Source: an uncultured Bacilli bacterium
Lineage (GTDB): Bacteria; Bacillota_I; Bacilli_A; RF39; UBA660
Length of the DNA: 50,472 nucleotides
NCBI GenBank assembly: GCA_944373065.1
Contig: CALWAJ010000001.1
Coordinates: 1-50,472, forward strand
Reading direction: 5' to 3'
The notes beneath the pieces are model-generated. The model made no database searches, was not told where the DNA came from, and worked only from the letters and a program-made list of their open reading frames with translations. Position numbers and translations under genes: made by a program. Of the stretch, positions 16,654 to 18,910 are shown one piece after another; within the stretch, counting starts at the first letter, position 1; the number at the start of each line of letters is the position of its first letter.

Positions 16654-17379
16654 CTAATTCTTTATTAGTTTTTTTACTTTTTCCAATGCTTCAGGATCTT
16701 TCTCTAAATCACTCACTAATGATAAAATGTTATTTTTATAATTTTCTTGTTCAGATGAAGATAAACTATCAAATTCAATTGTATTTAACAAAAGAAAAAC
16801 TATTGAATTATATATATTTAACGAACGTTGTACATCTTCTTCTTCAACTATTAATCTTATCATTTCTTTACAATTTTTTCTTGCTAACGATTTTTTATTT
16901 GTTGCTATATAATACCCATATAATGCTTGATATTCTCCCTTTGCGTTTACTATTAAGCTTATGATTTTTTTATAATCTTGTCTTGCTAATACATCTTTAT
17001 TTGTTGCTACTTTTGAACCTCCTATTGCTTGACATTCGCCTTTTGCATTTACTACTAAACTTATAATGTCTTTATAATCTTTTTTAGTATATAAATCTTT
17101 ATTTGTTGCAACATCATATCCATATTTCATTTGATAAGCTTTTAATTTATTATTTTTAAATATTTCTAATATCTCATCTCTATGTTTATTCTCAGCACTA
17201 TTAAACATCTCATTAGAATATAAATATATTAATGCTATTCTATTATTATCTTCAATTGCATTTTTTATATCATTATAGACACTACTATCCTGATTTAATA
17301 ATACAGTAAAATTAATACGATTTATATCAATCTTATTTTCTTTTGAATAGTCTTTTATTATTTTTAATACTTCTAACAT
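16654..17379 (-). CDS. Tandem-repeat protein, short paralog (about 3-4 units of the 34-aa VATNKDVLAK... repeat)
   Basis: N- and C-terminal domains are clearly homologous to 17459..18910. The internal repeats match. Confidence 0.75.
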   Translation of the reverse strand: MLEVLKIIKDYSKENKIDINRINFTVLLNQDSSVYNDIKNAIEDNNRIALIYLYSNEMFNSAENKHRDEILEIFKNNKLKAYQMKYGYDVATNKDLYTKKDYKDIISLVVNAKGECQAIGGSKVATNKDVLARQDYKKIISLIVNAKGEYQALYGYYIATNKKSLARKNCKEMIRLIVEEEDVQRSLNIYNSIVFLLLNTIEFDSLSSSEQENYKNNILSLVSDLEKDPEALEKVKKLIKN

Positions 17380-17427
17380 TTTTCATCGCTCCTTTTAATC
17401 AATTATTATAGAGTAGGAAATATGTAA

Positions 17428-17452
17428 AGAAAAATAGAGCTTTCTCTATTTT
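17428..17452 (-). terminator. Terminator after 17459..18910
   Basis: aaaatagag / ctctatttt hairpin. Confidence 0.55.
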
Positions 17453-17458
17453 AAATTT

Positions 17459-18910
17459 CTATTTTTTTATTAGTTTTTTTACTTTTTCCAATGCTTCAGG
17501 ATCTTTCTCTAAATCACTCACTAATGATAAAATGTTATTCCTATATTTTTCTTGTTCAGATGAATCTAAACTATTGAATTCAATTGTACTTAGCAAAAGA
17601 AAAACTATTGAATAATACATATTTAACAAACGTTGTACATCTTCTTCTTCAACTATTAATCTTATCACTTCTTTATAATTTTCTTTTGCTAACACTTCTT
17701 TTTTTGTTGCTACTGCATACCCACATGCTGCTTGATATCCTCCTTTTGCAGTTACTACCAAACTTATAATGTCGTTACAGTCTTTTTTAGCTAATACATC
17801 TTTATTTGTTGCTACTTTTGAACCATACTCTGCTTGATGCTCCCCTTTTGCAGTTACTACCAAACTTATAATGTCGTTATGGTCATCTTTAGCTAATACA
17901 TCTTTATTTGTTGCAACATAATACCCAGACTCTGCTTGATATTCTTCTTTTGCATTTGCTACTAAACTTATAATGTCGTTATGGTCATCTTTAGCTAATA
18001 CATCTTTATTTCTTGCTACTTTTGAACCATACTCTACTTGATATTCTTCTTTTGCATTCACTACTAAACTTATAATGTCTTTATGGTCTTCTTTAGCTAA
18101 TACATCTTTATTTGTTGCAACATAATACCCATACTCTGCTTGATATTCTTCTTTTGCATTTGCTACTAAACTTATAATATCTATACGGTCTTCTTTAGCT
18201 AATACATCTTTATTTGTTGCTACGAAATACCCATACTTTGCTTGATATTCTTCTTTTGCATTTACTACTAAACTTATAATATCCATATGGTCTTCTTTGG
18301 CTAATACATCCTTATTTGTTGCTACTTCTGAACCCCATATCGCTTGATATTTTTCTTTTGCATTTACTGCTAAACTTATAATATCTTTATAGTCTTCTTT
18401 GGCTAATACATTTTTATTTGTTGCTACTTTTGAGCAAAATATTTCATGATATTCTTCTTTTGAACTTGCTATCAAACTTATAATATCTTTACAGTCTTCT
18501 TTGGCCAATACATCTTTATTTGTTGCTGTCGCTACAAGCTCCTTATAATCTCTTAGAGATTTTTTTTCTTCAATTATTAATGCTTCTATAATTTCTTTAC
18601 AATTTTCTTTCGCTAAAATCAATGCGTTTGTAGCAACATCATATACATATTTCAAATGATAAGCTTTTAATTTATTATTTTTAAATATTTCTATTATTTC
18701 ATCTCTGTGTTTATTTTTAGCGCTATTAAACTTTTTATTAGAATATAAATATATTAATACTTTTCTATTAGTATCTTCAATTGCATTTTTTATATCATTA
18801 TAGGCACTATCATCCTGTTTTAATAATACATTAAAATTAATATAATTCATATTAATTCTATTTTCTTTTAAATAGTCTCTTATTATTTTTAAAACATCTA
18901 GCATTTTCAT
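17459..18910 (-). CDS. Tandem-repeat protein, long paralog (10 units of a 34-aa repeat between conserved N- and C-terminal caps)
   Basis: 483 aa. Units start at residues 92, 126, 162, 196, 230, 264, 298, 332, 366 and 400. Consensus VATNKDVLAKEDxxDIISLVVNAKEEYQAxYGxx. Confidence 0.8.
   Translation of the reverse strand: MKMLDVLKIIRDYLKENRINMNYINFNVLLKQDDSAYNDIKNAIEDTNRKVLIYLYSNKKFNSAKNKHRDEIIEIFKNNKLKAYHLKYVYDVATNALILAKENCKEIIEALIIEEKKSLRDYKELVATATNKDVLAKEDCKDIISLIASSKEEYHEIFCSKVATNKNVLAKEDYKDIISLAVNAKEKYQAIWGSEVATNKDVLAKEDHMDIISLVVNAKEEYQAKYGYFVATNKDVLAKEDRIDIISLVANAKEEYQAEYGYYVATNKDVLAKEDHKDIISLVVNAKEEYQVEYGSKVARNKDVLAKDDHNDIISLVANAKEEYQAESGYYVATNKDVLAKDDHNDIISLVVTAKGEHQAEYGSKVATNKDVLAKKDCNDIISLVVTAKGGYQAACGYAVATKKEVLAKENYKEVIRLIVEEEDVQRLLNMYYSIVFLLLSTIEFNSLDSSEQEKYRNNILSLVSDLEKDPEALEKVKKLIKK
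17651..18637 (-). repeat. 102-bp coding tandem-repeat array (about 10 units)
   Basis: The nucleotide periodicity is visible directly (…gctaatacatctttatttgttgc… recurs every 102 nt). Confidence 0.9.

What the first reader, a model, noticed from the sequence alone, without database searches (positions are those of the whole stretch)
16654..18910. Paralogous proteins built from 34-aa tandem repeats with variation focused at a few positions
The 483-aa protein has ten 34-aa units (102-bp DNA period) between conserved N- and C-terminal caps. The adjacent 241-aa paralog has the same caps with only 3-4 units.

In the seven best units the backbone is nearly invariant (VATNKDVLAKED--DIISLVVNAKEEYQA-YG--). 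Substitutions cluster at positions 13-14 (YK, HM, RI, HK, HN, HN, CN) and at positions 33-34 (SE, YF, YY, SK, YY, SK, YA).

A fixed-length helical repeat with a hypervariable residue pair is the organising principle of TALE-like and other modular binding proteins. I do not recognise this repeat as any named family. The difference in repeat number between neighbours, together with three copies of the same terminator hairpin (16625-47, 17431-52, 18960-82), indicates active local duplication and contraction.
Basis: seen in the sequence. Interest (0 to 1): 0.65.

Follow-up and report, generated by a model that had tools for sequence, protein, structure and literature searches.

The report
Unannotated 34-residue helical-repeat gene cassette
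Two neighbouring genes in a low-GC spore-forming gut bacterium encode proteins built from a 34-amino-acid helical repeat that matches no described family; close strains gain and lose repeats, and most lack the genes altogether, so this is a fast-changing optional gene of unknown function, not a TALE relative.

Summary
Protein A (483 aa, window 17459-18910, minus strand) has 10 units of 34 aa. Protein B (241 aa, 16654-17379) has the same caps and 3 units. The same terminator hairpin occurs exactly three times.

The repeat matches no Pfam, NCBIfam, PADLOC or PDB sequence family. About 180 cluster representatives among 1.84 billion proteins form a small family with the same 34-aa period. AlphaFold2 predicts a regular alpha-solenoid with three helices per unit.

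TAL effectors are the top Foldseek hits, but the match is only local (TM 0.1-0.2). Profile-profile comparison with TALE-like repeats gives 0.1% probability.

Variation is not confined to one residue pair. It lies on the exposed stripe of the long helix (positions 26/27, 30/31, 33/34), at 11/13/14, and in relatives at 3 and 6.

Population data added the most. Strains 98-99.8% identical in the flanks lack both genes, with the deletion running precisely from hairpin to hairpin. Other strains carry a 9-unit allele made by an in-register crossover between units 5 and 6.

Best reading: an optional promoter-gene-terminator cassette encoding a non-catalytic binding scaffold with a diversifying surface. 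The ligand is unknown.

The parts
18962..18980 (-). Hairpin copy 1, the terminator of the upstream EIIB-like gene. It is the left boundary of the cassette and the left recombination point in strains that lack the cassette.
   Evidence: Pattern match. It folds at -8.0 kcal/mol with a U-run. In empty-site strains the alignment breaks at window 18954.
18929..18956 (-). Sigma-A-type promoter of gene A: TTTACA, 16 nt, TATAAT. An AAAGGAG ribosome-binding site follows at about 18913-18919.
   Evidence: It matches 11 of 12 consensus positions (sequence). The same hairpin-TTTACA-N16/17-TATAAT-RBS layout is conserved in L001 and L002, although the proteins there are only about 40-50% identical.
17459..18910 (-). 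Gene A, 483 aa (probably 481 aa from the ATG at 18904). N-cap = aa 1-91 (18638-18910). Ten repeat units = aa 92-433 (17612-18637). C-terminal cap = aa 434-483 (17462-17611).
   Evidence: ORF, unit parse, AlphaFold2 model with pLDDT 86 overall and 95-99 in the units. An identical 481-aa product is called on another contig.
17612..18637 (-). Repeat array of A. Unit 1 is 36 aa, units 2-9 are 34 aa each (102 bp, 75-93% nt identity to one another), and unit 10 is degenerate. This is the hotspot of between-strain change.
   Evidence: Against strain L006 the array has 38 mismatches in 543 nt, versus 1 in 273 in the N-cap. The 9-unit allele with a unit 5/6 hybrid is in L020, L021 and L022.
17433..17450 (-). 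Hairpin copy 2, the terminator of A.
17405..17428 (-). Promoter-like copy in front of B (TTTACA ... TATAAT). Its spacer is only 12 nt, so it is probably weakened.
   Evidence: Sequence, alignment of the three intergenic regions.
16654..17379 (-). Gene B, 241 aa. N-cap = aa 1-89. Three units = aa 90-191 (16807-17112). The C-cap is 89% identical to that of A.
   Evidence: The identical protein is found on 6 other contigs.
16627..16645 (-). Hairpin copy 3, the terminator of B. It is the right boundary of the cassette and the right recombination point in empty-site strains.
   Evidence: The alignment break is at window 16649, with a 32-nt overlap equal to the hairpin.
16650..18953 (.). The segment of about 2.3 kb that is absent from 9 of 10 sampled places carrying the identical EIIB-like protein.

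Best explanation
Shown by the data: the region is an optional, self-contained cassette. Each copy consists of a sigma-A-type promoter, a ribosome-binding site, an ORF and a terminator hairpin. It sits between a small EIIB-like membrane-protein gene and an orphan histidine-kinase gene in a low-GC, spore-forming gut Firmicute.

The ORFs encode cytoplasmic proteins with no signal peptide and no transmembrane segment. They belong to a small helical-repeat family with no existing annotation. The architecture is an N-terminal helical cap of about 90 aa, a variable number of 34-residue units, and a C-terminal tail.

Each unit is predicted to form a long helix (11 residues), a one-turn helix (4) and a medium helix (9). 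The units stack into an alpha-solenoid on a near-invariant buried skeleton: A2, N/D4, L8, D12, I16, I17, I20, A23, K24, Q28, A29 and G/A32.

The locus changes by homologous recombination at two scales:
1. In-register unequal crossover between 102-bp units changes the repeat number (10 versus 9 units; 3 in the paralog).
2. Recombination between the roughly 30-bp direct repeats that contain the terminator hairpins duplicates or deletes whole genes.

Inferred, not shown: the protein is non-catalytic and works as a binding scaffold. Equivalent exposed positions of successive units (26/27, 30/31 and 33/34 on the long helix; 11/13/14 at the start of the medium helix; 3 and 6 in the turn) would line up into a long recognition surface rich in Tyr, His, Cys, Lys and Glu. 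That surface is what differs between units, paralogs, strains and species.

The ligand is unknown. A protein or peptide partner seems more likely than a nucleic acid. Optional carriage plus fast divergence suggest a strain-specific or conflict-related role rather than a housekeeping or core sporulation role.
For: Architecture and family:
- ORFs, period and units.
- Only 6 word-index homologues among 5.8 billion proteins. The exhaustive search found 179 cluster representatives at E <= 1e-3 and 86 at E <= 1e-10.
- The 34-aa spacing dominates family-wide.
- There is a conserved N-terminal cap and, across more distant family members, a conserved C-terminal E-D-I-T-P-x-T-x-V-K-V-K-I-K-like tail. 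The window proteins and their closest relatives carry a divergent version of this tail.

No known family:
- Pfam, NCBIfam, PADLOC and PHROGs.
- PDB sequence searches.

Fold:
- AlphaFold2 gives pLDDT 95-99 across the units, with an 11+4+9-residue helix pattern in each.

Skeleton versus surface:
- Entropy profiles.
- Within A, non-synonymous change is confined to a few columns, while synonymous change falls on the conserved columns.
- dN/dS is 0.19 on the skeleton and about 1.2 on the patch.
- Clustering test P = 0.006, and patch composition.

Fast evolution in a conserved setting:
- Neighbouring proteins are 82-94% identical to those of L001, while the repeat protein is 40-44% identical.
- Against the close strain L006, the array has 7% nt divergence versus 0-1% in the N-cap, unit 1 and the EIIB gene.

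Recombination:
- A 9-unit allele with a unit 5/6 hybrid occurs in three assemblies.
- The longest exact run shared between neighbouring units is 48 nt, shorter than the k = 87 implied by two of the contig names, so assembly collapse is unlikely.
- The cassette is absent from 9 of 10 places, with junctions exactly at the hairpin.
- The hairpin flanks the single gene in L001.
- The hairpin-promoter-RBS layout is conserved in L001 and L002.
Against: - No ligand, partner or phenotype is known. The binding-scaffold function is inferred from architecture only.
- I could not obtain model coordinates. Exposure of the variable positions rests on helical periodicity (26-30-34, i/i+4) and on the secondary-structure string, not on measured solvent accessibility.
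- dN/dS of about 1 on the patch fits relaxed constraint as well as positive selection.
- The AlphaFold2 alignment was shallow (8 sequences), and idealised repeats tend to receive high confidence anyway.
- The caps of B were poorly predicted (pLDDT 67).
- Most comparison loci are metagenome assemblies. L006 has a scaffold gap inside the array and L023 has 1.9x coverage.
- The frequency of empty sites is rough, because the look-up shows de-duplicated places and read only 24 of 185 index blocks.
Confidence: 0.55

Rival explanations
1. A TALE-, PPR- or PUF-like programmable reader. Each 34-aa unit would contact one base (or one residue) of a linear polymer, with specificity set by a few variable residues per unit.
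For: - The unit length is fixed at 34 aa, and long forms have 10-13 units.
- The best PDB Foldseek hits are TAL effectors (dHax3, AvrBs3, TALE-deaminase fusions) at E 2.5e-4 to 5e-3.
- The N-cap is basic (+6) and the array acidic (-16), broadly as in TAL effectors (the TALE comparison is from my own knowledge).
- Variable positions are enriched in Tyr, His, Lys and Arg.
Against: - The TM-scores of the TALE hits are 0.10-0.21 at rmsd of about 28 A, so the similarity is local helix-turn-helix only.
- A family profile finds no TALE chain in the PDB at E <= 10.
- hhalign against TALE, RipTAL and Bat repeats gives 0.1% probability.
- Pfam TAL_effector, PPR and PUF models do not match.
- The loop that aligns with the TALE RVD position is the conserved N-A-K-G/E.
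- Variation is spread over about 10 positions rather than 1-2.
- The median pI of the family is 5.3.
- No covarying target repeat or nearby binding site was found.
Confidence: 0.1
2. A component of a genetic conflict: anti-phage or anti-plasmid defence, or a decoy or immunity protein. It would bind a fast-evolving foreign protein stoichiometrically.
For: - Presence/absence polymorphism within a species-level population.
- Much faster divergence than the neighbouring genes.
- Tandem paralogs and repeat-number alleles.
- An autonomous promoter-gene-terminator unit.
Against: - No match to any PADLOC model and none of significance in PHROGs.
- No effector or enzymatic domain in any of 80 family members.
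- No relatives in viral contigs.
- The neighbours are sporulation and envelope genes, not a defence island.
- Distant members sit in unrelated contexts.
Confidence: 0.2
3. A Rap/RRNPP-like modulator of the adjacent orphan histidine kinase or of sporulation initiation. A cytoplasmic solenoid would bind a kinase, a response regulator or a signalling peptide.
For: - In all syntenic loci the cassette lies immediately upstream of an orphan membrane histidine kinase.
- It sits among sporulation genes: two CotZ-like genes, an FtsW/SpoVE-type gene, SpoVA and a sigma factor.
- From my own knowledge, Rap proteins are 34-residue-repeat (TPR) cytoplasmic proteins with an N-terminal helical domain, and they are strain-variable accessory genes.
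Against: - No TPR model matches.
- There is no Phr-like small ORF on the same strand after A or B.
- The kinase has its own promoter-like site and is present and intact in the many strains that lack the cassette.
- Distant family members are not next to kinases.
Confidence: 0.1
4. A dispensable gene under relaxed constraint. The repeat array would drift and recombine with no specific ligand, on its way to loss.
For: - It is absent from most close strains.
- dN/dS is near 1 on the patch, 0.76 across the array between strains, and 1.15 to 1.8 in the C-terminal part.
- The promoter spacer of B is shortened to 12 nt.
- Split or frameshifted copies occur in L007 and L023.
Against: - The skeleton positions are under clear purifying selection (dN/dS 0.19).
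- Intact ORFs and the same architecture persist across a family of about 180 clusters.
- Promoter, RBS and terminator are conserved between lineages whose proteins are only 40-50% identical.
- B shows dN/dS of 0.14 between strains.
Confidence: 0.1

Closest known systems
TAL effectors and TALE-likes (RipTALs, Bat/BurrH, MOrTL1/2)
   Same: Tandem helical units of fixed length (33-35 aa) with 10 or more units in the long forms. They are the best, though weak, Foldseek matches in the PDB. In non-Xanthomonas TALE-likes more than a third of repeat positions are polymorphic (PMC4787788), so spread-out variation is not by itself disqualifying.
   Different: No sequence relationship. The unit has three helices rather than two. 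The global superhelix does not superpose (TM 0.1-0.2). There is no variable RVD/BSR loop followed by a conserved GG-K-Q. The protein is cytoplasmic in a gut Firmicute, with no secretion or nuclear-targeting signals.
TPR / Sel1-like repeats, including Rap/RRNPP receptors
   Same: A 34-residue period, an alpha-solenoid, small residues (Ala/Gly) conserved at helix-packing positions, and an N-terminal helical cap. Rap genes are likewise accessory and strain-variable (from my own knowledge).
   Different: No TPR or Sel1 HMM hit, even with a consensus concatemer. The unit has three helices. There is no partner peptide gene.
Ankyrin repeats / DARPins
   Same: A 33-34 aa unit. There is weak pattern similarity in the part VL-A-R-x-D-A-L-E-I-V-K-L-I-x-N-A-K versus L-A-A-R-E-G-H-L-E-I-V-E-V-L-L-K-A-G-A. 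Designed ankyrins are the top PDB sequence hits for the family profile.
   Different: The hits are not significant (E = 0.09, 15 bits). No Pfam Ank hit. The ankyrin beta-hairpin loop is replaced here by an 11-residue helix.
De novo designed helical repeat proteins (DHRs, peptide-binding RPB designs)
   Same: Very regular, idealised short helical units. They are the best Foldseek matches for the short paralog B.
   Different: The matches are not significant (E 0.1-1, TM 0.25-0.45) and concern artificial proteins. They say only that the fold is a generic regular solenoid.
Phage 'morons' (autonomous promoter-gene-terminator modules)
   Same: Each gene carries its own sigma-70-type promoter and intrinsic terminator and is present or absent as a unit. 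The moron concept is from my own knowledge.
   Different: The site is chromosomal, among sporulation genes, not in a prophage. No relatives were found in viral contigs.

Membership tests
TALE-like repeat proteins | Detectable sequence similarity of the repeat to TALE, RipTAL, Bat or MOrTL repeats. Known groups share 30-40% consensus identity and conserved positions around the base-specifying residue (PMC4787788). | tested here: not met
   The family profile finds no TALE chain in PDB sequences at E <= 10. No Pfam TAL_effector hit.
TALE-like repeat proteins | A two-helix unit with a short variable loop (RVD/BSR at positions 12-13) between the helices, carrying most of the within-protein variation. 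| tested here: not met
   The unit is predicted as 11+4+9-residue helices. The inter-helix loops are T/x-N/D and N-A-K-G/E. The N/D at position 4 and the N-A-K are conserved, while position 3 and position 25 vary. The strongest variation lies on the helix faces and at position 13.
TALE-like repeat proteins | A right-handed superhelix that superposes on TALE structures. | tested here: inconclusive
   Foldseek E 2.5e-4 to 5e-3 but TM 0.10-0.21 and rmsd of about 28 A. The query is a predicted model, and superhelix pitch is poorly determined.
TALE-like repeat proteins | Sequence-specific DNA binding, one repeat per base. | not testable with these tools
   Needs EMSA or SELEX.
TPR / Sel1 (including Rap/RRNPP receptors) | A match to TPR or Sel1 profile HMMs. 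| tested here: not met
   No TPR or Sel1 family at E <= 1 for A or B, at E <= 10 for a 6-unit consensus, or at E <= 1e-3 for 80 members.
TPR / Sel1 (including Rap/RRNPP receptors) | For RRNPP: an adjacent small gene for a secreted signalling pro-peptide. | tested here: not met
   No same-strand ORF of 20 aa or more lies in the intergenic regions after A or B.
Ankyrin repeat | A match to Ank HMMs, and a helix-helix-beta-hairpin unit. | tested here: not met
   No Pfam Ank hit. Only E = 0.09 to designed ankyrins. The model has no beta structure.
Known anti-phage defence systems (PADLOC) | A match to a PADLOC protein model. | tested here: not met
   Six family members were scanned. None matched apart from a single insignificant hit (AbiEi, E = 0.011).
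This unnamed 34-residue repeat family (operational definition) | An N-terminal helical cap of about 90 aa; units with the skeleton A-x-N/D-x-x-V-L-x-R/K-x-D-x-x-E/D-I-I-x-L-I-x-x-A-K-x-x-x-Q-A-x-Y-G/A at 34-aa spacing; and a C-terminal tail. | tested here: met
   A and B both meet it. So do P0001-P0006, L001, L002, L007 and most of the 150 hits examined.

The most novel reading that the evidence does not exclude
The family is a previously unrecognised class of modular readers in gut Firmicutes. Each 34-residue three-helix unit would recognise one element of a linear polymer (nucleic acid, peptide or cell-envelope polymer) through the variable stripe 26/30/34 together with positions 13, 3 and 6. 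Unit shuffling by unequal crossover would then re-programme specificity between strains, giving a naturally 'programmable' scaffold independent of TALE, PPR and PUF.
Probability: 0.1. Interest if true: 0.85.

Novelty: new variant of a known kind. Interest (0 to 1): 0.5.

Why it matters
Helical tandem-repeat proteins (TPR, ARM, ankyrin, TALE, PPR, PUF) are the main natural and engineered modular binders. This is a compact family with no existing annotation: 34 aa and three helices per unit, predicted with very high regularity.

Its natural allelic series is unusually informative. Close strains differ in whole-cassette presence, in paralog number, in repeat number and in surface residues. That series offers three things:
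1. A direct handle on function, by comparing natural strains with and without the cassette.
2. A clean example of how short terminator-containing direct repeats mediate gene gain and loss.
3. A possible new scaffold for binder engineering.

If the surface variation turns out to encode specificity for a linear ligand, it would add a new recognition code. If not, it remains an ordinary fast-evolving accessory protein.

Tried and rejected
Searches that found nothing useful:
- Named-family assignment. Pfam, NCBIfam, PADLOC and PHROGs on A and B, on 80 family members and on a 6-unit consensus gave nothing above the curated cut-offs. The near-threshold DUF5875 hit (25 versus 26.5 bits) occurs in only 1 of 80 members and was dropped. 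The DUF2250 hit to the artificial concatemer was also dropped.
- PDB by sequence, single protein and 3-unit profile: nothing significant.
- Foldseek of model A against viral predicted structures: nothing (best E = 0.45).
- Foldseek of model B against the PDB: only designed repeat proteins, not significant.
- JGI metagenome contigs (two scans) and viral contigs (two scans): no relatives.
- GTDB species-representative genomes: a single locus, L001. The first attempt failed because the alignment was too diverse.
- A word-index search with the 3-unit profile: only two fragments.
- Literature: no paper mentions DUF5875. The TALE-inspired repeat screen (PMC5472282) mentions no Firmicute or Clostridial candidate and no VATN motif.

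Ideas considered and rejected:
- Assembly collapse as the source of the 9-unit allele. Three assemblies share the same hybrid unit, and the longest exact run between neighbouring units is 48 nt.
- An integron-like cassette. No integrase lies nearby, the hairpin has no attC-like core, and each gene has its own promoter.
- Antisense ORFs inside the arrays (16686-16964 and 17584-17769, plus strand). They are by-products of the repeat, Leu-rich, and have no homologues.

Limits:
- I could not map the variable positions onto 3D coordinates, because the tools return no coordinates.
- The repeat number in L006 is unknown because of a scaffold gap.
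Full report
**1. What is in the sequence**

The window has 26% G+C. On the minus strand, 17459-18910 encodes a 483-aa protein (A) and 16654-17379 a 241-aa protein (B).

Tandem Repeats Finder reports a 102-bp period. It finds 8.6 copies at 84% match in A and 2.8 copies in B.

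In protein terms A has three parts:
- a 91-aa N-terminal cap;
- ten units: the first is 36 aa, eight are exactly 34 aa, and the last is degenerate;
- a 50-aa C-terminal cap.

B has the same caps around three units. Its N-cap is 76% identical to that of A, and its last 45 residues are 89% identical.

The ribosome-binding site AAAGGAG lies 2 nt from the first ATG of A and 8 nt from the second. The real product is therefore probably 481 aa, which is also what gene callers chose on other contigs.

The motif AATAGAG-N3-7-CTCTATT occurs exactly three times in 50 kb, against 0 expected. The copies lie immediately after the upstream EIIB-like gene, after A and after B. Each folds into a 9-bp stem followed by a U-run, at -7.4 to -10.4 kcal/mol.

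The first two hairpin copies are each followed by TTTACA ... TATAAT and AAAGGAG. The duplicated unit is therefore hairpin-promoter-RBS-gene. The spacer is 16 nt before A but only 12 nt before B.

**2. Variation among units**

Positions 11, 30 and 31 are just as variable, however. Position 33 simply alternates S/Y because the array has a two-unit super-period: units 5 and 7 are 93% identical in DNA, units 6 and 8 are 90%, and B1 and B2 resemble the S-type and Y-type units respectively.

All differences at positions 11, 13, 14, 30, 31, 33 and 34 are non-synonymous. Synonymous differences fall on the conserved codons.

Nei-Gojobori estimates are dN/dS of about 1.2 for those seven codons (0.66/0.55, few sites, noisy) and 0.19 for the other 27. 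The concentration into a few columns exceeds chance (P = 0.006).

In the close subfamily (48 units from 11 proteins) the most variable positions are 34, 30, 26, 13, 6, 27, 21, 31, 3 and 33. Positions 26, 30 and 34 follow an i/i+4/i+8 pattern on the 11-residue helix. The variable residues therefore form a stripe on one face of that helix, joined by the first residue of the next long helix and by the turn.

Across the whole family (328 exact 34-aa units from 112 proteins) the conserved skeleton is A2, N/D4, L8, D/N12, E15, I16, I17, I20, A23, K24, Q28, A29, Y31 and A/G32. Position 14 is usually a hydrophobic L or I. There is thus no single hypervariable pair of the TALE type.

**3. What family it is**

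No Pfam or NCBIfam model reaches its cut-off for A or B, for 80 family members, or for a six-unit consensus. In particular there is no TPR, Sel1, HEAT, ankyrin, PPR, PUF or TAL_effector match. PADLOC and PHROGs give nothing meaningful.

PDB sequence searches with A and with a clean 3-unit family profile give nothing significant. The best hit is designed ankyrins at E = 0.09.

The word-index search of 5.8 billion proteins returned six relatives. The exhaustive HMM search of 1.84 billion cluster representatives returned 179 at E <= 1e-3 and 86 at E <= 1e-10.

Many of these relatives share three features:
- an N-terminal helical cap;
- units spaced at 34 aa (336 of about 590 successive pairs);
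- a C-terminal tail. In more distant members the tail ends in an E-D-I-T-P-x-T-x-V-K-V-K-I-K-like motif, while the window proteins and their closest relatives carry a divergent version.

The proteins are mostly acidic, with a median pI of 5.3. In A the N-cap carries +6 and the array -16.

**4. Fold**

AlphaFold2 on an 8-sequence alignment gives mean pLDDT 86 and 95-99 across the units. Every unit forms helices of 11, 4 and 9 residues.

Foldseek against the PDB lists TAL effectors first (E 2.5e-4 to 5e-3). The TM-scores are only 0.10-0.21 at rmsd of about 28 A, so the similarity lies in the local helix-turn pattern and period, not in the superhelix.

The model of B is poorer (pLDDT 67). It matches only de novo designed helical-repeat proteins, and not significantly. 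Viral predicted structures give nothing.

**5. Genomic setting and comparison with relatives**

The neighbours are two CotZ-like spore-coat genes, an FtsW/RodA/SpoVE-family gene, a small membrane protein with an EIIB-like domain, an orphan multi-pass histidine kinase and an HD-domain protein. Further away lie SpoVA genes and a sigma factor.

The only hit among 185,579 species-representative genomes is a MAG labelled 'uncultured Bacilli bacterium' (L001). It is fully syntenic but has one 512-aa gene at this site. Neighbouring proteins are 82-94% identical between the window and L001, whereas the repeat protein is 40-44% identical.

A third syntenic lineage (L002) again has a long gene plus a short one (312 aa).

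Within each lineage the paralogs resemble each other about as much as, or more than, they resemble orthologs elsewhere. This points to repeated duplication or to concerted evolution.

The hairpin-TTTACA-N16/17-TATAAT-RBS layout is conserved in L001 and L002 despite the protein divergence. In L001 the hairpin flanks the single gene on both sides.

**6. Population-level evidence (new in this stage)**

*Cassette presence or absence.* I looked up the exact 106-aa EIIB-like protein in public assemblies. Ten places were returned, and in nine of them the EIIB-like gene is followed directly by the histidine kinase. The flanks of these nine are 90.6-99.8% identical in DNA to the window, and 97.8-99.8% in seven of them.

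In those nine, the alignment to the window stops at 18954 on one side and resumes at 16649 on the other. The 32-nt overlap is the hairpin. The junction reads EIIB-type hairpin followed by the sequence that follows the hairpin of B. About 2.3 kb (roughly window 16650-18953) is therefore precisely absent, as expected from recombination between hairpin copies 1 and 3.

The cassette sits at the same site in the more distant L001 and L002 lineages. Presence is therefore probably ancestral and the empty sites derived, but insertion cannot be excluded.

*Repeat number.* Looking up the exact B protein returned strains in which A is 447 aa (L022). Two further contigs (L020 and L021) start inside A. All three carry the same hybrid unit, VATNKDVLAKEDRIDIISLVVNAKEEYQVEYGSK, made of the first half of window unit 5 joined to the second half of unit 6. 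This is the signature of an in-register unequal crossover that removed one unit.

The three come from separate assemblies. The longest exact run shared between neighbouring units is 48 nt, shorter than the k = 87 implied by the names of two of the contigs. Assembly collapse is therefore unlikely.

*Sequence divergence between strains.* Against the close strain L006 the array carries 38 mismatches in 543 nt and 27 of 181 residues differ. The N-cap has 1 mismatch in 273 nt, unit 1 has 0 in 108, and the EIIB gene has 3 in 327. B is much more conserved (dN/dS 0.14).

Caveats: L006 has a scaffold gap inside the array, and L023 (1.9x coverage) has a frameshift.

**7. Interpretation**

The following points are shown:
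- This is a real repeat-protein family with no existing annotation, predicted to fold as a regular three-helix alpha-solenoid unit.
- A buried skeleton is under purifying selection, while a set of exposed positions changes freely.
- The genes form autonomous promoter-gene-terminator units.
- Recombination between 102-bp units changes repeat number, and recombination between the hairpin-containing direct repeats changes gene number.
- The cassette is dispensable within the species.

The following points are inferred:
- The protein is a non-catalytic binder whose recognition surface is the variable stripe.
- Its role is strain-specific, possibly conflict-related or regulatory.

The TALE-like reading is not excluded, but it has no positive support beyond period and local fold. 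A Rap-like role towards the adjacent kinase is conceivable but fails the testable membership criteria: there is no TPR match and no partner peptide gene. Relaxed constraint on the way to gene loss remains a live alternative for the surface variation.

**8. Verdict**

'Hypervariable pair, TALE-like' is not supported.

Novelty: a new variant of a known kind, namely alpha-solenoid tandem-repeat proteins. Interest is moderate (0.5). It would rise sharply if a ligand and a per-unit recognition rule were found.

Noticed in passing
window 18976-19305 (-): A small protein (106-109 aa) with one N-terminal transmembrane helix and a PTS EIIB-like domain just above the Pfam cut-off (31 versus 27 bits). 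Its exact sequence is listed in 185 index blocks of public assemblies, so the host species is common in those metagenomes. Its terminator hairpin is the left recombination site of the cassette.
   Followed up: partly
window 19461-19865 (+) and 19880-20278 (+): Two tandem Cys-rich CotZ-like spore-coat/exosporium paralogs, divergently oriented from the cassette. They are about 89-90% identical to their L001 orthologs.
   Followed up: partly
window 15293-16549 (-): An orphan histidine kinase (HisKA + HATPase_c) with a multi-pass membrane N-terminus and no adjacent response regulator. It has its own promoter-like site (TCGACA-16-TATCAT) just after hairpin 3. It may be a sporulation kinase.
   Followed up: partly
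L006 4544-4921; L020 2919-3296; L021 2907-3284 (corresponding to window ~15290): Some close strains carry an extra 125-aa ORF with no Pfam hit between the histidine kinase (413 aa there, 418 aa in the window) and the HD-domain gene. This is a second small presence/absence polymorphism in the same neighbourhood.
   Followed up: no
window ~11697-13430 (-), and L009-L018 beyond locus position ~8000: Alignments of close strains to the window end near 13430. The next gene differs between strains (products of 594, 597, 630 or 213 aa; 513 aa in the window). L016 has a Mu-like transposase (rve, Mu-transpos_C) there. The 391-aa and 513-aa window proteins look like paralogs with an N-terminal transmembrane helix and a weak DUF6273-like C-terminus. 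This may be another variable hotspot.
   Followed up: no
window 16686-16964 (+) and 17584-17769 (+): Leu-rich antisense ORFs (92 and 61 aa) inside the repeat arrays, plus a ladder of 20-22-aa antisense ORFs every 102 bp. These are mechanical by-products of the repeat, not genes.
   Followed up: yes
L007 652-1943: A family member in an unrelated context is split into 158-aa and 262-aa ORFs by a stop about 26 nt before a restart. It is either a pseudogene or a sequencing error. Its neighbours are different (a 191-aa kinase-like protein on the opposite strand).
   Followed up: no
P0144 (921 aa) and P0077 (766 aa): Distant hits carry related 34-36-aa units in other settings. P0144 has a 560-aa N-terminal domain followed by units of the type LLSGDNAQRYVDAVINSKNPE. 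P0077 has units of the type VATNEASLNSPYHxxDMxLI. Neither matches any Pfam family. The repeat superfamily may extend beyond Firmicutes.
   Followed up: no
window 17405-17428 (-): The promoter copy in front of B has a 12-nt spacer, against 16 nt for A and 16-17 nt in L001 and L002. B may therefore depend on read-through from A or be weakly expressed, yet B is the more conserved of the two genes between strains.
   Followed up: partly
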